Below are positions 1,444 through 55,653 of a stretch of 64,000 nt of DNA, piece after piece. The first letter of the stretch is position 1; every line of letters starts with the position of its first letter. The position numbers were made by a program, and so were the translations under genes. Below the pieces are notes generated by a model. It saw only the letters and a list, made by a program, of their open reading frames with translations. It searched no databases and was not told the origin of the DNA. Source of the DNA: Nitrospirota bacterium (GTDB lineage: Bacteria; Nitrospirota; UBA9217); NCBI GenBank assembly GCA_963818475.1, contig CAWFSF010000006.1, positions 288,001-352,000 of the forward strand, read 5' to 3'.

Positions 1444-1497
1444 GACTATTGGGGTCAGACTTTAAAATTGACATTCTGGCTTTTCTCGGAGAGCTAC
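1444..1497. repeat. Direct repeat copy 1 (GACTATTGGGGTCAGACTTTAAAATTGACATTCTGGCT..GGAGAGCTAC)
   Basis: Near-identical to 2909-2962. Confidence 0.9.
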
Positions 1498-1612
1498 GGA
1501 GATCTAGAGGGTCGGTCTGCTTTCTTACCATTCGGACTCTTTAGAAAATGGACTTAATCGGGATGGATACGCCGCACTATGAATCCTCGCCCACCAGGAA
1601 AGGACCGCTACA

Positions 1613-2241
1613 GTGTCCCTTGAATTCTGGCTCCTCTACGCTGTCACCGTATTCCTCGCCTCGATCAGCCCCGGCCCCAGCATGTTGCTTGCCCTGACGC
1701 ACGGCATGAAGTACGGTACGCGGCGGACCATAGCGACGGCGGCAGGCAACGTCATCGCCTCGCTGCTCCAGGCGGCGGTGTCCATCGCAGGTCTGGGCGC
1801 AATCCTTACCCTGTCTGAAGGTGTGTTCTCGGTCATCCGGTGGCTGGGGGCGGGTTACCTCATTTACCTCGGCATCGTCACGTGGCGGTCTTCCTCGCTC
1901 TTGCAGGCCGGAGAGGAGGGTGGCGCACCGTCCCGATGCTGACGCTCCGCGCCATGTTCCTCCGGTCGTTCCTCGTTGCAGCGGGGAACCCGAAGGCGAT
2001 CATCTTCTTTACGGCGCTCTTCCCCCAGATCGTCGGCAGCGGCGTGCGGCGGCTTTCCGAGGTCTCGATCCTGCTTGCGACCCTGGCGCTCATCGCCTTC
2101 TTCTGCTTCATGCTCTACGCAACGGCGGGTCAGCGCATCCTTGCGCTCTTCTCCCGGCAGGCCAGCGGCCAGAACCTGAACCGGATCGCCGGCGGCGCCT
2201 TTATCGGGGCCGGTATCGGGCTCGCCGTAAGCAGGCGATGA
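1613..2241 (+). CDS. LysE/RhtB family amino-acid exporter (one frameshift near 1935)
   Basis: ISPGPSMLL..HG..YG motif in ORF 1613-1942 and NPKAIIFFTALFPQ in ORF 1840-2241. Confidence 0.85.
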
Positions 2242-2908: not shown

Positions 2909-2962
2909 GACTATTGGGGTCAGACTTTAAAATTGACATTCTGGCTCTTCTCGGAGAGCTAC
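2909..2962. repeat. Direct repeat copy 2 of 1444-1497
   Basis: Sequence identity seen by eye, one substitution. Confidence 0.9.
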
Positions 2963-3052
2963 TGCGATCGGACCCAATAGGGTCAGGGCCTTTGTTATGG
3001 TGTCGACCCCCAAAAAGCAGTAGTATGCCGTAACAGAAAATTGACTTTTATT

Positions 3053-3131
3053 GGGATGGATACCCCGCACTGTGAATCCTCGCCCACCAGGAAAGGATCG
3101 CTACCATGTCCCTTGAATTCTGGCTCCTCTA
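3053..3131 (+). repeat. Second copy of lysE leader and first 8 codons (MSLEFWLL*)
   Basis: Matches 1560-1638 with few substitutions; ATG instead of GTG. Confidence 0.9.
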
Positions 3132-3990: not shown

Positions 3991-4087
3991 CCTCGCTCAC
4001 CAGGAAAGGATCGCCGCCATGTCCCTTGAATTCTGGCTCCTCTACGCAGTCACCGTCTTCCTCGCCTCGATCAGCCCCGGTCCCAGC
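3991..4087 (+). repeat. Third copy of lysE leader and first 23 codons
   Basis: ATG at 4019 gives MSLEFWLLYAVTVFLASISPGPS then W*; synonymous differences from 1613-1681. Confidence 0.9.
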
Positions 4088-23010: not shown

Positions 23011-23361
23011 TCAGATTCCCTTTTCCATCTTTTCCAATATATCAGCCATAACTACTTCCGGCGATTTTAATACGTCATGGTTCCAGTAACGTAAAACACG
23101 GTAGCCCCGTTCTTTCAACCAGGCACTTCTTTTTTCATCATATTGAACTTGATCGGTGTGCTGGCCTCCATCGAGTTCGATGATCAAGCGTTGTTCTAAA
23201 CAGATAAAATCTACAATATAAGACCCGATCGGCTGCTGTCTCCGGAACTTAAATGCACCCAGTTGACGCATTCGCAGGTGTTTCCAAAGAAGCCGTTCCG
23301 CGTCGGTTGCTTTCCTGCGTAATTGCCTTGCGTTTGTGATACTGGTAGGACTGTGCTCCAT
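23011..23361 (-). CDS. DUF559 / Vsr-like endonuclease domain protein inserted between nuoL and nuoM
   Basis: ARQLRR..TDAE..LW..LR, FRRQ.PIG.YIVDF, IELDGGQH, GYRVLR.WN. Confidence 0.9.
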   Translation of the reverse strand: MEHSPTSITNARQLRRKATDAERLLWKHLRMRQLGAFKFRRQQPIGSYIVDFICLEQRLIIELDGGQHTDQVQYDEKRSAWLKERGYRVLRYWNHDVLKSPEVVMADILEKMEKGI

Positions 23362-26264: not shown

Positions 26265-26277
26265 GAACACCTTTTTT

Positions 26278-26750
26278 GCCACGAAGGCACGAAGACACGA
26301 AGAACTTCTAAAAAAGTAAAAGCCGCTATACAACAATCCTTTTTATGCCGTGCTTAATAAGGGGGACATTAAAGTTAATGAGAAAACCTAAACGTTTATC
26401 GGTCAATTTTAAGTGACTAATTATCTGGGCTTCCCAGACAGGGTGCATTTCTTCCACTGCTTTTAGCTCGCAAATAGCCAGATTTTCGACAAGAACATCC
26501 AGTCGTAATCCTTCGTCGAATTTAAGTCCGTCGTATTCAATGGGGATGTCCACTTGTCTTTGGTTTTGTAATCCTCGTTTAGTCAACTCATGACAAAAAC
26601 AAATCTCATATACTTTTTCAAGCAAGCCCGGCCCTAGTGCTTTGTGGACAGTGTAAGCCGCATCAACGATTTTCTTGGCAATAACCTCTTCAGTTTCCGA
26701 CAAGTTAAGAGTGCTCATGACTCCCCTTCGTGTCTTCGTGCCTTCGTGGC
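26278..26750 (-). mobile_element. Putative GxxExxY cassette element bounded by inverted (CACGAAGG/CACGAAGA)x3 arrays
   Basis: GCCACGAAGGCACGAAGACACGAAG at the left end and its exact reverse complement at the right end; AT-rich interior. Confidence 0.7.
26326..26718 (-). CDS. GxxExxY protein (PD-(D/E)XK nuclease-like)
   Basis: VHKALGPGLLEKVY, RLDVLVE, ELKAVE, GFLINF. Confidence 0.92.
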   Translation of the reverse strand: MSTLNLSETEEVIAKKIVDAAYTVHKALGPGLLEKVYEICFCHELTKRGLQNQRQVDIPIEYDGLKFDEGLRLDVLVENLAICELKAVEEMHPVWEAQIISHLKLTDKRLGFLINFNVPLIKHGIKRIVV

Positions 26751-26759
26751 AAATTATGT

Positions 26760-31072: not shown

Positions 31073-31253
31073 TTTGACACGGATTTTCACGGATTTAAAC
31101 GCCGATAAGGGCGGATAAATGCAGAATCAAGCTGATTTGTTAAAAGACACGGCGAACTATTTTAAGTTTTTCTCCGAAATTGAGCGTTGTTTCAGCATGT
31201 ATCAAGTTGCTATCAGCCGTGATCATAATTAAATCCGCTCCTTCCGTGTCAAA
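31073..31253 (-). mobile_element. Internally deleted GxxExxY-type element with 28-aa remnant ORF (31140-31226)
   Basis: TTTGACACGGA..TCCGTGTCAAA terminal inverted repeats; remnant MITADSNLIHAETT-LNFGEKLKIVRRVF. Confidence 0.65.
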
Positions 31254-41267: not shown

Positions 41268-41364
41268 TCACTTCATGCCGCTGTCCAATACAGCGATATA
41301 AGGCAGGTTCCGGTACTTCTCTCCAAAATCCATCCCGTATCCCACCACGAACAGATCCGGAATT
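41268..41364 (-). repeat. Orphan 3' end of hpt, copy 1 ([31 protein letters not shown])
   Basis: About 70 bp near-identical to 47934-48005, with its own stop codon. Confidence 0.9.
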
Positions 41365-43562: not shown

Positions 43563-43629
43563 TCATCCCGCAGTTTGAAGCGCGGCGATATAAGGCAGGT
43601 TCCGGTACTGCTCCCCAAAATCCATCCCG
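43563..43629 (-). repeat. Orphan 3' end of hpt, copy 2 ([21 protein letters not shown])
   Basis: 55 bp similar to 47924-47978, with its own stop codon. Confidence 0.88.
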
Positions 43630-47908: not shown

Positions 47909-48439
47909 CTATCGTTCAAAAACTTGAAGCTCGGCGATATAAGGCAGGTTTCGGTACTTCTCTCCAATATCCATCCCGTATCCCACCACGAACAGATCCG
48001 GAATTTCGAATCCCTCGTACGCAATCGGCACCTCGACAGTACGCCGCGGCCTTTTGTCGAGCAGCCCCACGATGGCAAGGCTTGCCGGTTCCTGCTCCGA
48101 AAATCTTTTGTAGAGACATGCCATGGTCTCGCCGGTATCGATGATCGTGTCGATGAGCAGCACGTGTTTGCCCCGGATGTCGGTCGTGATGTCCTTGCTG
48201 ATGACAAGGTTCGTGGAAGAGACCGTGCCTGAACCGTAGCTTGATGCCTGGATGAAGTCAACGAAGACGGGGACGGTGATGCGGCGGACGAGATCGGTGA
48301 AGAAGACCAGCGCACCCTTCAGGATGCAAACCGCAACTACCTCTTTGCCGGCATAATCTCTCGATATCTCCTGTGCCAGCTCTGCTACCCGCTGTTCGAT
48401 CGTTTGTTCGCTGAAGAGTATCCGGTGCGGCGCTTCCAT
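47909..48439 (-). CDS. hpt: Hypoxanthine phosphoribosyltransferase
   Basis: [35 protein letters not shown]. Confidence 0.93.
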   Translation of the reverse strand: MEAPHRILFSEQTIEQRVAELAQEISRDYAGKEVVAVCILKGALVFFTDLVRRITVPVFVDFIQASSYGSGTVSSTNLVISKDITTDIRGKHVLLIDTIIDTGETMACLYKRFSEQEPASLAIVGLLDKRPRRTVEVPIAYEGFEIPDLFVVGYGMDIGEKYRNLPYIAELQVFER

Positions 48440-49099: not shown

Positions 49100-52000
49100 T
49101 CCAAATTTCCCAGATTTACGAACTTGCCGTTGCACTCGTAGAATATCTCCGTGTCCGGCTGGTCATTTTCGGAGCCGTTCGGAGCAAACAGATATTGAAG
49201 GGACTGCTGCTCCTGGTCAACAGTGAGTTCCCGGGTAAGAACGTTGTTCTCGAACCGGCTTCCCTCGCTCTGCCACAGCAGCTTTGCTCCTGCCGGCAGT
49301 GTTTCTACGATCTTTGCGCGCACCGGTCCGGTAGAAGAGGAAAGCGTTGTTTCGCGCGAGGTCCTGTTGCCGGGATCGGTCTTGGGAAGGGCATGCAGCA
49401 CGGAGTTCCTGAGGAGCAGGCCGTAGAGCGGGAGAGGTCCCGGCATCCCGTGCTGAGCGGATAAGGGAGAAGGGCAAGAGCATGATCGTGCCGCCCTCGC
49501 TCCTATCGATCAGGATCGCCGGCTGGTCTGTGCTGTTCAGCGTTGCAGCCGCATGGACACCTTTTTTCTGCGCTTCCAGGACCGGTCCGGTCACCGGGAT
49601 CGTGCCGGACAGGCCGAATCCCGATCCGCTGGCAACGGTCAGCAGGGCAGTGCTTTCGTCCGTCCTGCCCTTCTTGAAGGTGAAGCCGAATGCCTCAGCT
49701 GCTGTTCGTATACCCTCATCGGAACCGATCAGGACGAGCCCCTGACCCTGATGCAGCTGCTCCCGCAGCCAGTCTGGTTGCGGAAGGTTCTCATGCGTCT
49801 CGAACAGGACATAGATGTTAAACAGGTTGCTCATGGCCTGCGCGGCGAAGTCCGCAGCATTCCCCACGACCTTGGCGTAATAGCCATTCTGTCCAAGGGC
49901 TTGTTTCAGGACCTCTTCGGACAGCGCGCGCTCCAGGGTCGAACCTGCAGTACCCTGCCAGACGAGCACCCGCGGGAAGGGGGTGTCCGATCTCAGGACC
50001 GCGAGCGGCCCCTTGACAATCAGCGGGCGCTCGGCCAGCAGCAGGTCCCGGGATATTTTGTGGTCTTGGTTTGCCACTGCGGCCCTGAGTTGGATGGTAT
50101 AGGCTCCCTGAGGAAATTCCACGTTTTCAATGGTCAGCGTGGAGGATTTTTCCGTAAAGGGGAGCTGGCGGGTGAAAAGCGGTTGTGCGTTGTTTGGTCC
50201 TCTGATCTCGATCCTGAGGGTCCCGGTCGATACGGGAATGTTCCCGGTGCTTGCAGCTTTGTACTGGAGCGTGAAGGGACGGCACAGGGCAGCTGCTTCC
50301 GGCGTGTTATCGAGCGTGCCGCTCACGACCAGCGTGGGAAGGATGTTGATGTCAACGGTCCTTGAGGCGAGCAGCGTTTCACGGGAGAGCTGAATTGCGA
50401 GCTTGTAGATCCCGATGGGCAGCGCTGTTGGCCGGAATGAACGGTCGATGCGTTGCTCCTTGTCCGGGGAGAGCTCGTCGATCCTGATCGTGTCAGTGTG
50501 GACAGCCTTGCCGGCCGGGTTCACCATCTGCAGGGTCATGGCAAGGTCCTTATACGAGGCACGCGTAAGGTTCACCGCGGTAAAGGCGATTGCGATATCT
50601 TCATCGGAACTGAAGGAGCTCTTGCCCGGGTAAAGACCGAGCAGCACGTCAGGGACCTGCACTTCAGCAGTGGCATTATTGTTGCCTTCATTCGATTCGG
50701 TTACCGCATCATCAATATCGACAATTGCATAGAGCGTCCGGGCGCCGTTTTTTTTATGCAGCGGCCAATTGATGAGAACTACCTGCTGATCGCCGGGTAT
50801 GAGCTGATGCACGGCGACCCGCTCGACCAGCTTTCCCCCTGCTTCCGGATTGCCGTCATACAGGGCGACGCGGCTTGGACCTGCCGTGCTCTTTCCTTCA
50901 TTCCTTATCCCGATGCCGACGGGGAGGACCGCTCCAGCAGGCTTCGGAGCCTCGATGGTGACCGCAAGGTCGGGCAGGTGTGCGCCATAGACGACAGTGC
51001 GTTCCCTGGCGCTTTCCAGCAGATCATCGGCAAGAATCGCCTGCAGCGTATGCGTACCGGGCGCGATCTCTGTTACGGGGATCCTCTGGACCGCAACGCC
51101 TGCAAGTTCGATCCGGTCTTTCCGTATTCGTTTGTTGTCGAGGAGCAGTTCGAACTTTGTTTTTCCCCTGCCATAGACATAGGCCGAGACGGCGACCGGG
51201 CCCGACGGTTCATAGTAGAGCGGCTGGGCCGTGGCGATGCCCAGGACAGCGGCATTCCCGGCGTCAAAGAGTGCGCGCCCGGCAGCCACAGACACCGGAC
51301 CGCCAGGCAGTCCCGGCCCTTCCGGAAGGCTGGTCAAGAGGCTGTAGTGCAGTTCCCAGATGCCGGCCTGGTCGATCCTGGTCGTGATCGGCAGCACAAC
51401 CTCCTGTAGGCCCGCGGTCAGGGTGAGCGGACTTTCGATGGCCGGCCGCATCTTTCCGTCGGGCCCCCGGAGCAGAAGTTTTGCGATTGCCGGGAGCGGC
51501 GTTGATGCATTGATACGGAGCAGGGCGATCAGGCCGGATGCGCCGGGTTCAGACCGCTTCCGAACGATCGCATCCTGAATGGTCACGGTGTAGCCGCTGA
51601 CGGCCAGCAGCTCCTTGCCCTCACGGGAACTGCCGTCTATGTTTTGGAGGCTCCACAGGAGGGGATAGATGCCTGTGGGCAGGTCCTTGGGCAGGGAGAT
51701 ATCGAAAGCGCCGGTATCAACAACTATCTGGGTGTCAAGTACGCCGGGTCCGGTCAGCGTGAGTTCGCCCTGGCCCACACCGCTGATCAGGGCTTTTATT
51801 TTTTGGCCCGACCGTGCGACGGAGCGGTCAAAGGCCAGGCTTTTGGCGGCCGCGCCGGCGGGGATGCTTCCCCGGGCCAGCGATCTTCCGCTGGAGTGAT
51901 AGATCGTGTAAGCGACCGGGGCAGCGGCATCGCGTGTTGAAAGTTCAAAGGTGAGCTGCGCTTTATCCGCCGTGAGCCGGAACATTTTTTCCTGGCCCGC

Positions 52001-53341
52001 CAGGCGCATGAAAAAGTCCTGGTTCTGCGCGATGCCTGCTGTATCCAAAGCGGTTATCGCCACGGTTGCCGAGAGGCTGCCGGCGGCCTGCTCCCGCAGG
52101 AGTTCAACGCGAAAGGTCAGCGGGAAGGGGAGCATGGGCTGCTTCTGTTTCTGGAGGGGCGCTGCCACCGGGGGCTGGCCAAGGGAGAAGCGGCCTGCGT
52201 CAGCTTCTACTGCTGCGGTGACGACCCTGCCTGCAGCATCGAGCAGCGCATATTCCAGATGGTAGTTGCCGGCAGGCAGATCTGCCGGGATCGTGAAGGA
52301 AAAAGGCAGGCTCAGCGATTTTGCCTGCACGGCCGGGAGCTTTAGGATCTGGTCCGGGGTTGCTGATTTGCCGGGGCCCACGATGGAGATCCTGGCTGCC
52401 GAGGCCTCCACCTGATCTGTACCCTGTATCAGGAGGTTTACAGCCAACTGCTGGCCCGCGGCGACCGGCAAGGTCTCTTCCGGCGCCTTGGACCATGCCA
52501 CGAGGTCACGAAGCAGAACCTTTTCGTCCTGCTCCAGCCGGCCCTGGCCGAAAGAATAGTCCGTAAAGAGGGCCGTGATCACGACCCAGCCCGCTCCCAC
52601 GGGATAAACGATCAGCGTCGGATAGCCGTCGGGGCGGACCAGCACGACCTGTGCCTTTTCGGGCCAGGAGGCCAGGTACCCGCTCGTTTCGATGTCCGGT
52701 ATGCTTTTTTTTGTTCCGCTCAGCATGGGGTGCGAAGACTGGATCGATGAGGCGCGGAAAAACGGATTATTGTCCTGCGCCCAGCCGGCGCCGCTCACCG
52801 GGGCCTTCGACCCCTCAGGTACGGGCAAGGCGGCCAGATCGCCGGCGTTCTGCTGGGCAAAGACGATGATGACGCCGCCTGACCGCACATAGGCATCCAG
52901 GCTTGCCTTGAAGAACTCTGAAGCGGCATGGCCGGACAGGCCGCCTGAGGGGATGATCAGCAACGGTTTGGTATTTTCGAGCCCGGCGACATTGCTGCTG
53001 TCCACCAGGACAGCCGGTTCACCAAGCGCGGAAAGCAGGGCCGGCCAGGATTCGAAGAACCCGCTTTTGAGCACGGCCGCATCCGGGCCGGCAAAGAGCT
53101 CGGCCTCGAGCATATTGCCGCGGAGCCCTTTTTTTGTGCCGGTTCTGAGCACGGCCGCAGGATCGTCGGAATAAGCCGTCGCAGGATCGGTCTGTTGTGC
53201 AAAGGTCTCATTTGCCGGGTTGGTGCCCTGGGGGAACCAGAACCCTTCTCCGCTCCCTTCCTGCGCCAGGGCAGGGATGGAGGCGCAGAGCAGCAGCGCG
53301 GCAAGGATGAGTGGTTTTATTTTTAGAAGGGATGTGGTCAT
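49096..53341 (-). CDS. Large (about 1400 aa) secreted CARDB/Ig-like domain protein (frameshift near 49440)
   Basis: Signal peptide ..SIPALA-Q; PDLAV..IRNEG..LYDGNP..D....ESNEGNN CARDB motif. Confidence 0.75.
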
Positions 53342-53372
53342 AAGAGTTAATGAAAAAACGGGTAAATCAAAA

Positions 53373-53967
53373 AAAACCTTCGACACGGAAGAATCGGATT
53401 AACTGCTGGTAAAAGATAAGTTAAAGGGCAAGGGGTTCATACGAAGGACAAACCGTTTTTGCCGTATCCGATGTTATCCGGCTTTTATCCGCCTTTATCC
53501 GTGTCCAAGATCTTTCAGGATTTTCTGTCCAATTATTTTATAAACGTCACCCGGTTGATCTCCTTCAAGTAAAACCTTTGACACGGAAGAATCGGATTAA
53601 CTGCTGGTAAAAGATAAGTTAAAGGGCAAGGGGTTCATACGAAGGACAAACCGTTTTTGCCGTATCCGATGTTATCCGGCTTTTATCCGCCTTTATCCGT
53701 GTCCAAGATCTTTCAGGATTTTCTGTCCAATTATTTTATAAACGTCACCCGGTTGATCTCCTTCAAGTAAAACCTTTGACACGGAAGAATCGGATTAACT
53801 GCTGATAAAGGCGGATACGTCAAGGGGCAAGGGGTTCATACGAAGGACAAACCGTTTTCGCCGTATCCGATGTTATCCGGCTTTTATCCGCCCTTATCCG
53901 TGTCCAAGGCCTTTCAGGATTCTCTGTCCCATTATTCTATAAATGTCACCCGGTTGATCTCCTTCAG
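53373..53967. repeat. Three tandem units of about 198 bp, each a pilB 3' end plus an inverted-repeat shell
   Basis: GACACGGAAGAATCGG at 53382, 53580 and 53778; units 1 and 2 differ at one base, unit 3 is more diverged. Confidence 0.92.
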
Positions 53968-55653
53968 AGTGGTTGCGCCGGCCAGGACCTTGGCAACAGC
54001 CGACTGGCGCAGGGTGGTCATGCCTTCGGAGATCGCGACCTTTCTGAGCTCCGAAGACGGCCGCTTTTCGAGGATCATCTCCCTGACATGGTCGGAGAGG
54101 TCAAGGAACTCGTGAATGGCCTTCCTGCCGCGGAACCCGGTAAAGTTGCATTCCTTGCACCCCGGGGCATCGTAGAACACATGGTCATGGTACTGCTCTG
54201 CGTCCATGGCGGAATCGGTGAGATCCTTGCGCGAAATCGTGACGGGTTTCTTACAGTGCACGCAGAGGATGCGCACGAGCCGCTGTGCCAGGATGCAGTT
54301 AAGCGACGATACGAAGTTGTAGGGCTCGATGCCCATGTTCAGAAAGCGGCCGAGCACGTCGAAGGCATTGTTGGCATGCACCGTGGTAAAGACCAGGTGC
54401 CCCGTAAGCGCGGACTGGACCGCGATCTGGCCGGTTTCGGCGTCGCGGATCTCGCCGACCATGATCTTGTCCGGGTCGTGCCGCAGGATGGAGCGGAGGC
54501 CGCGCGCGAAGGTGAGGCCCTTTTTCTCGTTCACCGGTATCTGCGTCACGCCCCTGAGCTGGTATTCAACGGGGTCCTCGATGGTGATGAACTTGTCCTC
54601 GCCGGTGTTGATCTCGGTCAAAGCCGCGTAGAGCGTCGTGGTCTTGCCGCTGCCCGTGGGTCCGGTGACCAGCACCATGCCGTAGGGTTCGCGAATGCTT
54701 TTGCGGAAACGGCGCAGGTCGTTCTCGTCGAATCCGACACTGTCGAGGCTGAGGGTATTGACGCCGGCGGTGATCGATTCCTTGTCCAGGATGCGGATGA
54801 CCACATCCTCGCCGAATGCGCTCGGCAGGATGGAGACGCGGAAGTCGATGGTCTTGCCGCCGGTCCGGATCTTGAACCTGCCGTCCTGGGGCACGCGGCG
54901 CTCGGCGATGTCGAGGTCGCTCATGACCTTGAGGCGCGACACGATGGCGCTGTGAAACTTGATGTCGATCGGTTCGGTGGCAAGGTAGAGCACGCCGTCG
55001 ATGCGGTACTTGATCAACACGTTCTTGTCGGTCGATTCGATATGGATGTCGCTGGCGCGCCGCTGGATAGCATCGAAGATCGTGGTGTGCATGAGCTTGA
55101 CGATGGGGCTTTCGTCCTTGTCGATGCTCTCCAGGGACAGGACCTCCTCGCCGTTCTCCTGCTCCTTGACGATATTGAGCTTAAAGTCCTCCGAAACGTT
55201 GTGGAGCACCCGCTCGGAGGTGCCGCTCCGCTTGACCACCGCCATGATGGACGAGGTGGTGCTGACGCAGACGTCCACCGGCCGGTCAAGGATCATCTCG
55301 AGCTCATCGATTGCCGGGATGTTGTTCGGGTCGGTCATGGCCACGACGATGCCGCCGCCGTCCGTCTCCTCGACGGGCACGAACTGGTAGCGCTGCATGA
55401 GCTCCACCGGGATCTGTTCGAAGAACGCGGGGTTGATACGGAACTCCGCGAGGTCGAGGTAGCGCAAATCGCGCTGCTCGGCAAGCGCCTGGGCCAGCAC
55501 CTCCTCGGAGATGATCCCGTCGGCGGCTAACAGCTCGCCGATGCGCTTTCCCCGGCTCGCGGGCCGCGCCAGGAGCTCGCTGATCTGCTCCTGCGTGGTG
55601 AGCCCCTTGGATACGATGATCTCGCCGAGCCTTTTTCTTCTAAAGGATGTCAT
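53932..55653 (-). CDS. pilB: PilB/GspE family assembly ATPase with N-terminal MshEN domain
   Basis: RLGEII..G, GPTGSGKTTTLY, TIEDPVE, LRHDPD..MVGEIRD, two CxxC motifs. Confidence 0.93.
   Translation of the reverse strand: MTSFRRKRLGEIIVSKGLTTQEQISELLARPASRGKRIGELLAADGIISEEVLAQALAEQRDLRYLDLAEFRINPAFFEQIPVELMQRYQFVPVEETDGGGIVVAMTDPNNIPAIDELEMILDRPVDVCVSTTSSIMAVVKRSGTSERVLHNVSEDFKLNIVKEQENGEEVLSLESIDKDESPIVKLMHTTIFDAIQRRASDIHIESTDKNVLIKYRIDGVLYLATEPIDIKFHSAIVSRLKVMSDLDIAERRVPQDGRFKIRTGGKTIDFRVSILPSAFGEDVVIRILDKESITAGVNTLSLDSVGFDENDLRRFRKSIREPYGMVLVTGPTGSGKTTTLYAALTEINTGEDKFITIEDPVEYQLRGVTQIPVNEKKGLTFARGLRSILRHDPDKIMVGEIRDAETGQIAVQSALTGHLVFTTVHANNAFDVLGRFLNMGIEPYNFVSSLNCILAQRLVRILCVHCKKPVTISRKDLTDSAMDAEQYHDHVFYDAPGCKECNFTGFRGRKAIHEFLDLSDHVREMILEKRPSSELRKVAISEGMTTLRQSAVAKVLAGATTLKEINRVTFIE

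What the first reader, a model, noticed from the sequence alone, without database searches (positions are those of the whole stretch)
53373..53967. pilB 3' end triplicated together with a GxxExxY-type shell
Seen: each unit of about 198 bp holds the last 11-12 pilB codons (LKEINRVTFIE* in the gene, ..FIK* in the two orphans) and a GACACGGA..TCCGTGTC inverted shell containing a KRFVL-like reading. The gene-proximal unit is diverged from the two near-identical distal units. Inference: this site links the two phenomena in the window, suggesting that shell acquisition can duplicate the flanking gene end.
Basis: partly seen in the sequence, partly recalled or inferred. Interest (0 to 1): 0.7.

Follow-up and report, generated by a model that had tools for sequence, protein, structure and literature searches.

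The report
Tandem hairpin repeat carrying gene tail
A 198-base stretch holding the last 11 codons of a secretion-ATPase gene and a gene-less hairpin left by a small selfish nuclease cassette has been copied head-to-tail three times, an ordinary local duplication known for similar bacterial hairpin repeats.

Summary
Window 53373-53966 is a 3.0-copy, 198-bp tandem array. Each unit holds the last 11 codons and stop of a PilB/GspE-family ATPase gene, a 27-nt spacer and a 124-127-nt hairpin "shell". The two distal units differ at 1 of 198 positions; the gene-proximal unit is about 92% identical to them.

The shell belongs to a dispersed family: 77 convergent GACACGGA/TCCGTGTC pairs in the genome. 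One pair encloses a complete GxxExxY gene. A paralogous shell at window 31076-31250 is an in-frame internal deletion of a cassette that is complete in a relative. This scan has met such shells before on other DNA.

The inference that shell acquisition duplicates the gene end is not borne out:
- Two same-genus relatives and three metagenome contigs carry the same shell once, with no extra tail.
- 19 of 19 relatives have one tail.
- 0 of 69 other shells have flank repeats.

Best reading: a later, lineage-specific tandem duplication of shell plus flank, then expansion from two to three units. REPIN clusters show the same pattern (PMC3116915). Interest is low to moderate.

The parts
53932..55653 (-). 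PilB/GspE-family secretion ATPase gene (573 aa) with an MshE-type c-di-GMP N-domain. It is intact. Its last 11 codons and stop (53932-53967) lie inside repeat unit 3.
   Evidence: Pfam T2SSE 4.2e-132 and MshEN. NCBIfam TIGR02538 PilB scores 580.8 bits, below the 675.65 cut-off. GspE scores 539.1, below 630.25. NF053729 scores 48.9, above 38.
53769..53966 (.). Repeat unit 3, gene-proximal. It holds the gene tail LKEINRVTFIE* (53932-53967), a 27-nt spacer and shell 3 (53778-53904).
   Evidence: It is 91.4-91.9% identical to units 1 and 2.
53571..53768 (.). Repeat unit 2. It holds an orphan tail LKEINRVTFIK* (53731-53766, minus strand), a spacer and shell 2 (53580-53703).
53373..53570 (.). Repeat unit 1, distal. 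It holds an orphan tail LKEINRVTFIK* (53533-53568, minus strand), a spacer and shell 1 (53382-53505).
   Evidence: It differs from unit 2 at 1 of 198 positions (53381 is C; units 2 and 3 have T).
53369..53376 (-). Run of eight T on the gene strand, directly after the last hairpin. It looks like an intrinsic terminator for the ATPase gene.
   Evidence: Sequence and hairpin fold. The simple terminator scan did not call it.
49217..53341 (-). Downstream gene: a 1374-aa secreted-looking protein with a CARDB domain. Its start lies 40 nt beyond shell 1.
   Evidence: No NCBIfam family.
31076..31250 (-). Paralogous GACACGGA shell between the nuoF-like and nuoG-like genes. It keeps a 28-codon mini-ORF (31140-31226), made of the first 14 and last 14 codons of a GxxExxY gene that is complete at the same site in relative G002.
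26275..26753 (-). Complete GxxExxY cassette in the window: gene 26326-26718, bracketed by perfect 28-nt inverted arms made of CACGAAG words.
   Evidence: I4; PF13366 9e-38; TIGR04256 136.7 bits.

Best explanation
Shown. A gene-less hairpin shell sat once between the ATPase gene and the next gene in the ancestor of this genus subgroup. The shell is an internally deleted derivative of a GxxExxY nuclease cassette. Its roughly 40-nt arms consist of GACACGGA followed by reiterated CGGAT(A/T) words.

Inferred. In the lineage of this genome a 198-bp segment was duplicated in tandem. One breakpoint lies inside the ATPase gene, 33 nt before its stop. The other lies 11 nt beyond the shell, at the 3' base of the hairpin. 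This was an ordinary illegitimate event. Replication stalling and template switching at the long hairpin is the likely trigger.

The two copies then diverged by about 7-8%, with derived changes on both sides. Recently the array grew from two to three units, by unequal exchange or slippage between units. That accounts for the two near-identical distal units.

The real gene keeps its conserved end (...FIE*). The orphan tails (...FIK*) are dead passengers. The hairpins, the last one followed by T8, probably act as a terminator or RNA-end structure for the ATPase transcript.
For: Anatomy and identities.

Single shell without tail duplication: G001 and G005, and contigs in X2, X3 and X4. One tail in 19 of 19 relatives against 3 in G000.

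Polarised differences:
- The u1/u2 lineage has 6 substitutions and a 3-bp deletion (plus 1 probable).
- The u3 lineage has 5 substitutions.
- G000 units are closer to each other (92-93%) than to G001 (89-90%) or G005 (about 86%).

No flank repeats at 69 other shells: the longest is 10 nt, as in 300 random sites.

The shell folds into one long hairpin: -55.6 kcal/mol, z -2.96. The array folds at -173.6 kcal/mol, z -3.04.

Shells are deleted cassettes.

Other shell-plus-flank tandem duplications: C2:774544 (140 bp x1.9, 90%), C6:988083, G046/G069 nifD-nifK and G021 nuoI.

Against: - The unit count could not be confirmed with reads.
- No clear microhomology is left at the junction, so the duplication mechanism is inferred.
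- Of the 15 short-range direct repeats I inspected, chosen by eye from 64 loci, word-array shells occur in 3 and partly in a fourth. With the pilB and C2:774544 arrays, that is 5-6 shell-linked local duplications. This enrichment could mean an element-specific copying process rather than generic slippage.
- The 7-8% divergence of the first duplicate is almost as large as between-species divergence. Import of a diverged copy is therefore not strictly excluded.
- The terminator role is untested, and the simple scan found none.
Confidence: 0.7

Rival explanations
1. Insertion-coupled duplication: when a shell or cassette lands next to a gene, its insertion mechanism copies the adjacent gene end.
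For: Tail and shell form one unit. The distal breakpoint coincides with the outer base of the hairpin. Shell-plus-flank duplicates recur.
Against: The orthologous single shell has no duplicated tail in G001, G005 and three metagenome contigs. 0 of 69 other shells have flank repeats. The layout has three tails for three shells, not n+1. At the nuoF-nuoG site neither the full cassette nor the shell has a flank duplication.
Confidence: 0.07
2. Element-specific local amplification: the unknown mobility machinery of the cassette family, like REPIN clusters next to RAYT genes, copies a shell to the adjacent position and drags host sequence along. Arrays would then be footprints of that mechanism.
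For: Shells are enriched among local duplications. Five of 64 family genomes have head-to-tail adjacent GACACGGA shells, and four of those five include duplicated flank. The breakpoint is at the hairpin base. REPIN clusters provide a precedent.
Against: Breakpoint distances from the shell vary. They are 11 and 63 nt here, and 18 and 42 nt at C2:774544. No enzyme is linked to the process. The pattern is equally expected from hairpin-induced replication errors.
Confidence: 0.15
3. Assembly artefact: the two near-identical distal units are one unit counted twice.
For: u1 and u2 differ at only 1 of 198 positions. No reads were available. The genome bin is 91% complete with 6% contamination.
Against: The assembly resolves many internal repeats of 1.2-3.1 kb at 99.3% identity or more, so reads were long. 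Short-read assemblers collapse such repeats rather than expand them. The single u1/u2 difference is a real distinguishing base. Even if this were true, the diverged two-unit duplication remains.
Confidence: 0.08
4. Site-specific cassette array (integron-like or Campbell-type integration of a small circle carrying tail plus hairpin).
For: Units consist of a short segment plus an imperfect hairpin, which superficially resembles ORF plus attC. The window also has integration-like gene-end duplications at hpt and LysE.
Against: No integrase domain was found among 75 window ORFs; only an IS-type rve domain is present. There are n tails for n hairpins. Junction searches found no other copy of the tail-shell junction in two public collections. 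The unit is far too small to be autonomous.
Confidence: 0.03

Closest known systems
REPIN clusters of Pseudomonas fluorescens SBW25 (Bertels & Rainey 2011, PMC3116915; abstract and sections 11-12 read)
   Same: Both are short non-coding hairpin elements dispersed in extragenic space. Their commonest higher-order form is a tandem repeat of nearly identical elements including the flanking sequence, up to four units and over 700 bp. Unordered clusters arise by insertion into or next to existing elements. That matches the replaced or nested shells seen here.
   Different: REPINs are REP doublets tied to RAYT (Y1) transposases. Here the arms are reiterated words, and the only associated gene is a PD-(D/E)XK-type GxxExxY gene. 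The genome's own RAYT-like gene (L032, PF01797) is flanked by an unrelated REP sequence.
GxxExxY (TIGR04256 / PF13366) cassettes and their empty word-array hairpin shells, noted earlier by this scan in other genomes (e1-728589, e1-981465, e1-2135841, e1-1251993 and others)
   Same: The inverted arms are built from reiterated short words. The complete form carries one small nuclease gene. Gene-less copies are far more numerous. Tandem hairpin arrays were already noted (e1-1251993).
   Different: Here the tandem unit demonstrably includes the coding end of a neighbouring host gene. An orthologous full/deleted pair (G002 against G000 at nuoF-nuoG) shows the deletion route directly.
Multicopy nucleotide sequences and 'predicted global regulator binding sites' of Geobacter genomes (Aklujkar et al. 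2009, PMC2700814; 2010, PMC2996986; passages found by term search)
   Same: These are paired sites on opposite strands, each made of four tandem octanucleotide (or five heptanucleotide) repeats at variable distance, filling intergenic regions. Multicopy sequences occupy 12% of intergenic regions in G. bemidjiensis.
   Different: They were interpreted there as regulator binding sites or RNA elements. The passages I saw make no link to GxxExxY genes or to tandem duplication with gene ends. The supplementary PDFs were not seen.
23S rRNA intervening sequences carrying an S23p four-helix-bundle ORF (Coxiella; PMC4990558, start of the abstract in the search listing only)
   Same: A small selfish element of about 430 nt carries one tiny ORF. 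This genome has a PF05635 gene in a word-array cassette (L033).
   Different: IVS elements sit inside rRNA and are excised from RNA. The element here is intergenic, and nothing is known of its processing.
Target-site duplications of transposons, and att-site duplications of integrative islands at gene 3' ends (recalled general knowledge)
   Same: A copy of a gene end appears next to inserted DNA.
   Different: Those give element-flanking repeats: n+1 copies, short for a TSD, with an integrase for islands. This array has n tails for n shells, and single shells lack any repeat.

Membership tests
GxxExxY-cassette hairpin shell (gene-less derivative) | Inverted arms identical in type to arms that bracket a complete TIGR04256/PF13366 gene | tested here: met
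   GACACGGA...TCCGTGTC arms enclose a 131-aa TIGR04256 gene (132.5 bits) at G000:C1:79152-79624.
GxxExxY-cassette hairpin shell (gene-less derivative) | Derivation from a full cassette by internal deletion | tested here: inconclusive
   Shown for the paralogous shell at 31076-31250. Its mini-ORF matches residues 3-16 (8 of 14) and 115-128 (12 of 14) of the G002 protein. For the ATPase-site shell itself only about 52 nt at one end align (79%), and no relative has a full gene there (0 of 19).
GxxExxY-cassette hairpin shell (gene-less derivative) | Dispersed multicopy, intergenic, no ORF of a known family inside | tested here: met
   77 convergent pairs in the genome, most 85-220 bp. The internal ORFs of 30 and 37 aa hit no NCBIfam family.
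REPIN / RAYT system | REP doublet hairpin associated with a RAYT (Y1 transposase) gene flanked by the same REP | tested here: not met
   The hairpin feature is met. However, the RAYT-like gene of this genome (PF01797) is flanked by a different REP sequence.
REPIN / RAYT system | Ordered clusters: tandem repeats of near-identical elements including flanks | tested here: met
   compared with PMC3116915 section 11. This is a resemblance in behaviour, not membership.
Transposon target-site duplication | Direct repeats on both sides of each single element | tested here: not met
   0 of 69 other shells. Single-shell relatives have none.
Integron cassette array | IntI integrase and attI nearby; attC core sites at unit boundaries | tested here: not met
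   No integrase family among 75 window ORFs. attC core motifs were not specifically searched for.
Intrinsic terminator | Stable hairpin followed directly by a U-run at the 3' end of a gene | tested here: inconclusive
   The last hairpin is followed by T8. The simple scan, limited to stems of 20 pairs or fewer, called 0 sites. No RNA data exist.
Type IV-A pilus ATPase PilB (TIGR02538 equivalog) | Score above the curated cut-off | tested here: not met
   580.8 bits against a cut-off of 675.65. GspE scores 539.1 against 630.25. It is a PilB/GspE-family ATPase, and the name 'pilB' is loose.
Known RNA family (Rfam) | Covariance-model match | tested here: not met
   The only hit in 53000-54200 is a 19-bit match outside the array, E 0.43.

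The most novel reading that the evidence does not exclude
The array is not generic slippage. It is a footprint of how these nuclease-cassette hairpins multiply. A hairpin-anchored copying step places a new copy beside the old one and carries adjacent host DNA with it, coding gene ends included. Arrays like this would then record the otherwise unknown replicative intermediate of a cross-phylum selfish element.
Probability: 0.15. Interest if true: 0.55.

Novelty: new member of a known kind. Interest (0 to 1): 0.3.

Why it matters
On its own this is a small, probably neutral rearrangement. The ATPase gene is intact and the orphan tails are dead.

Its value is as a dated, polarised example. These hairpin shells behave like REPINs. 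They persist at one intergenic site for species-level time. They are replaced or nested there: a different shell in G002 and G003, and other word arrays in other genera. They also make their surroundings prone to tandem duplication that can capture coding sequence.

The nuoF-nuoG comparison found along the way shows directly that a shell is an in-frame internal deletion of a GxxExxY cassette.

For annotation, the short repeated gene-tail ORFs next to such hairpins should not be called genes or pseudogenes of functional interest.

Tried and rejected
Reads. No public run held more than 0.18 of the sampled words. Laying X1-X4 gave only relatives' contigs, none spanning more than one unit. This says nothing about the unit number in this strain.

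Junction searches. The exact 30-nt tail/shell junction and a degenerate tail-gap-GACACGGA pattern gave 0 hits in metagenome contigs and in genome contigs. The window's own genome may be left out of those collections.

KRFVL as a GxxExxY remnant. tblastn with 6 GxxExxY proteins gave only a 5-residue match, E about 9, and it lies on the wrong strand. Rejected.

Target-site duplication. Rejected by the flank test.

Known RNA. None.

Promoter and terminator scan. 0 and 0.

Link to the window's other gene-end duplications (LysE head at 1444-1681 / 2909-3131 / 3991-4087; hpt tail at 41293 / 43575 / 47924). I saw no word arrays at their junctions by eye. I treat them as a separate, integration-like phenomenon.

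First family-wide pattern search. One search used gap ranges that do not fit G000's own array. I complemented it.

Organism.

Tools not used. Structure, complex and atlas tools would not bear on a non-coding duplication.

Full report
WHAT IS THERE

Window 53373-53966 is a head-to-tail array of three 198-bp units: TRF period 198, 3.0 copies, 95% matches, score 1063. Start-to-start spacings are 198 and 201.

On the minus strand, a 573-aa ATPase gene (53932-55653) runs into the array. Its last 11 codons and stop (LKEINRVTFIE*, 53932-53967) open unit 3. Each unit then has a 27-nt spacer, a 124-127-nt inverted-repeat element bounded by GACACGGA and TCCGTGTC, and 11 nt (AAAGGTTTTAC on the gene strand). 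Units 2 and 1 begin with orphan copies of the tail that read LKEINRVTFIK*.

Units 1 and 2 differ at one position of 198. Unit 3 is 91.4-91.9% identical to them and carries a 3-bp indel.

The 8-mer is strongly over-represented in the window: 15 occurrences against 1.87 expected.

The ATPase is a PilB/GspE-family protein with an MshE-type c-di-GMP-binding N-terminus. It scores below the PilB and GspE equivalog cut-offs, so 'pilB' is a loose name.

The next gene (49217-53341, minus strand) encodes a large CARDB-domain protein.

WHAT THE SHELL IS

The genome (G000: 4.66 Mb, 7 contigs) holds 360 copies of the 8-mer. They form 77 convergent pairs within 3 kb, most of them 85-220 bp apart.

The listing of 75 pairs of 700 bp or less shows two arm types by eye:
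- GACACGGA followed by three or four CGGAT(A/T) words about 10-11 nt apart, as at the ATPase gene. Its outer inverted repeat reaches about 10 nt further (…AAAACCTTTGACACGG / CCGTGTCAAAGGTTTT…).
- Three CACGGAG octamers.

Similarity among copies is confined to the roughly 40-nt arms. The interior of the ATPase-site shell is unique in the genome.

One pair (C1:79152-79624, 473 bp) encloses a complete 131-aa GxxExxY gene (PF13366; TIGR04256 132.5 bits). The other PF13366 loci of the genome are bracketed by arms of other vocabularies, such as CACGAAG, CACGGAG and GCAAAGG. One of these is in the window at 26275-26753.

A second GACACGGA shell in the window (31076-31250, between the nuoF-like and nuoG-like genes) gives direct proof of origin:
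- In relative G002 the same site holds a full 128-aa GxxExxY gene (TIGR04256 139.2 bits).
- G000 keeps a 28-codon in-frame mini-ORF (31140-31226).
- Residues 1-14 of that mini-ORF match residues 3-16 of the G002 protein (8 of 14). Residues 15-28 match residues 115-128 (12 of 14).

Shells are therefore internally deleted cassettes, in the way MITEs derive from transposons.

About 52 nt at one end of the ATPase-site shell align with the 5' end of that cassette in the plus-strand sense (79%, I1). The 'KRFVL' reading, which is on the minus strand and only a 5-residue match (E about 9), is thus best taken as chance.

As RNA of the gene strand, the shell folds into one long imperfect hairpin (-55.6 kcal/mol, z -2.96). 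The last hairpin is followed by T8. No Rfam family matches.

This scan has described such cassettes and empty shells in other genomes before. Geobacter genome papers list comparable paired word arrays as 'multicopy nucleotide sequences' or 'predicted global regulator binding sites' (PMC2700814 and PMC2996986; passages only; supplementary PDFs not seen).

WHAT RELATIVES SHOW

In 40 related genomes plus G000 itself, the region was found in 39 of 41. I examined 19 loci with the orthologous gene end.

- All 19 end in …INRVTFIE* and have exactly one such tail. G000 has three, reading E, K, K.
- Same-genus G001 and G005 carry the orthologous GACACGGA shell once between the two genes, with no tail copy.
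- Same-genus G002 and G003 carry a different empty shell (words of the CCGAG type) at the same spot. By my reading of that sequence, they also keep a short remnant of the older arm.
- In other genera the site right after this gene holds word arrays of many other vocabularies (by eye).
- None of the 19 has a GxxExxY gene there.
- Contigs of relatives in three metagenome runs join the downstream gene to a single unit (skips of 404-436). One further contig keeps only a stub.

Polarising the u3 against u1/u2 differences with G001 and G005 gives these results:
- 6 substitutions and the 3-bp deletion are derived on the u1/u2 lineage (one more probable).
- 5 substitutions are derived on the u3 lineage.
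- The units are 92-93% identical to each other, 89-90% to G001 and about 86% to G005.

So the first duplication happened within the G000 lineage, after the shell was already in place. It is old. The third unit is recent.

IS FLANK DUPLICATION A PROPERTY OF SHELL INSERTION?

No. Among 72 GACACGGA-bounded shells of 300 bp or less, only the three of this array have direct repeats between their 90-nt flanks (74 and 22 nt). The other 69 reach at most 10 nt, as do 300 random sites, apart from one of 25 nt.

The layout is (tail-shell) x3 with no trailing tail, so it is a tandem duplication and not a target-site duplication.

The LysE-head and hpt-tail duplications elsewhere in the window flank a toxin-antitoxin pair and a small island. 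They show no word arrays at their junctions.

TANDEM DUPLICATION OF SHELL PLUS FLANK RECURS

Whole-genome TRF (77 rows with period of 60 or more) and a blastn survey of direct repeats 50-700 bp apart (64 loci, 15 of which I picked by eye and inspected) found the following.

Shell-linked cases:
- C2:774544-774823: the last ~14 codons of a GxxExxY gene plus an empty shell, 140 bp x1.9, about 90% identical.
- C6:988083-988581: a shell of the CGCGGAG type plus flanks, offset 293 bp, 91.5% identical.
- C2:752359.
- A PF05635 cassette at C6:1705671.
- C6:1922798, which is only partly shell-linked.

Local duplications without shells:
- C5:459964.
- C6:886880.
- C3:106399.
- A different hairpin element at C3:266315.
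- A REP/RAYT locus at C6:1760604.

Pattern searches for head-to-tail adjacent GACACGGA shells in 64 family genomes, using four gap ranges, found five genomes:
- G000.
- G046 and G069: two shells between nifD and nifK, 88% identical, with about 28 nt of flank repeated.
- G021: two shells upstream of nuoI, with the nuoI start region repeated.
- G048: two unlike shells and no flank repeat.

MECHANISM

Shown:
- The anatomy of the array.
- Its restriction to this lineage.
- The order of events: shell first, then the first duplication, then the recent third unit.
- The intact gene.
- The hairpin potential of the shell.

Inferred: the first event was an illegitimate tandem duplication. One breakpoint is at the 3' base of the hairpin and the other is 63 nt upstream of the shell inside the gene, as expected if replication stalled or switched template at the hairpin. 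The step from two to three units came from unequal exchange or slippage within the roughly 45-nt stretch that is identical in all units. This also fits the one u1/u2 difference (53381 is C in u1 and T in u2 and u3).

After 7-8% divergence no microhomology can be read at the junction. An element-specific copying process cannot be excluded.

The closest published behaviour is that of REPINs. [quoted passage not shown] Membership in the REPIN/RAYT family is not met. The RAYT-like gene of this genome is flanked by another REP sequence.

RELIABILITY OF THE UNIT COUNT

No reads of this strain were available. The junction was not found elsewhere. Two units are secure because they differ by about 8%. 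The assembly contains many internal repeats of 1.2-3.1 kb at 99.3% identity or more. That argues for long reads and hence for a correctly counted 600-bp array, but this is inference.

VERDICT

This is a new member of a known kind, namely tandemly amplified hairpin mini-elements with flanks. Interest is low to moderate. The most useful by-product is the orthologous full/deleted cassette pair at nuoF-nuoG.

Noticed in passing
L004 (G003) and L005 (G002), intergenic region next to the ATPase gene end: The same intergenic spot holds a different empty shell (arms of CCGCCGAG / ACGCGGAG / GCGCCGAG words). A short TCGGATTTAAC remnant resembling the GACACGGA-type arm sits beside it. Shells seem to be replaced or nested in place.
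   Followed up: partly
L006-L020 (19 relatives), first ~300 nt after the ATPase stop codon: In most other genera the site right after this conserved gene end holds word arrays of other vocabularies, such as GACAGTA x4, ATGCGC/ATGCAC words and AATCCGCA words. It looks like a recurrent landing or formation site.
   Followed up: partly
window 31076-31250 and L038:1671-2057: Orthologous pair: a full GxxExxY cassette in G002 against an in-frame deleted 28-codon mini-ORF in G000. The arm words differ consistently between the two (CACTG against CACGG types). G000's right side seems to hold remnants of both arm types. Unexplained.
   Followed up: partly
L030:445-724 (G000:C2:774544-774823): A second tandem duplication of a gene tail plus an empty shell: the last ~14 codons of a GxxExxY gene plus a GCAAAGG/ACAAAGA-word hairpin, 140 bp x1.9, about 90% identical.
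   Followed up: partly
L031 (G000:C6:988083-988581): A duplication offset by 293 bp (91.5% over 213 nt) containing a CGCGGAG-word shell, directly upstream of a frameshifted GxxExxY gene.
   Followed up: no
window 23011-23361 and 26275-26753: The complex I (nuo) operon is peppered with small selfish-looking genes between its subunit genes. One is a DUF559 endonuclease-like gene flanked by CCCCTCACC…GGAGAGGG repeats. Another is a GxxExxY gene in perfect 28-nt CACGAAG arms.
   Followed up: partly
window 1444-1681, 2909-3131, 3991-4087: The promoter-proximal head of a LysE-family gene occurs three times, with a Phd/YefM antitoxin gene and a partner ORF between copies. This is an integration-like gene-end duplication without word arrays.
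   Followed up: partly
window 41293-41364, 43575-43629, 47924-48005: The 3' end of a phosphoribosyltransferase gene occurs three times. The copies bracket two inserts: an HsdM fragment with YgjP, then an IS with rve domain, LprI and ParE. This looks like serial site-specific integration at one att site.
   Followed up: partly
L032 (G000:C6:1760400-1761400): A RAYT-like gene (PF01797, weak hit) is flanked by GGGCGGGTTT…AAACCCGCCC REP palindromes, one of which also seems to be read through inside the ORF. This is a separate REP/RAYT system in the same genome.
   Followed up: partly
L033 (G000:C6:1705500-1706400): A 23S_rRNA_IVP four-helix-bundle gene (PF05635) lies between direct 45-nt repeats made of TTGGAAAT-type words, with the inverted array further on. 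It looks like two cassettes in series sharing arms.
   Followed up: no
G000:C5:522236-522325: A hybrid shell. Its left arm is almost identical to the ATPase-site arm (29 of 29 nt to unit 1). Its right arm is of the CACGGAG-octamer type.
   Followed up: no
L021 (G046), L022 (G069), L023 (G021): Two tandem GACACGGA shells between nifD and nifK in two genera, with the nifD stop codon lying in the TTTGA of the shell end. Two more lie upstream of nuoI with the nuoI start region repeated.
   Followed up: partly
L036 and L043 (G005), nuoF-nuoG site: An insertion-sequence transposase gene appears to sit inside the GACACGGA shell, and the contigs break there.
   Followed up: no
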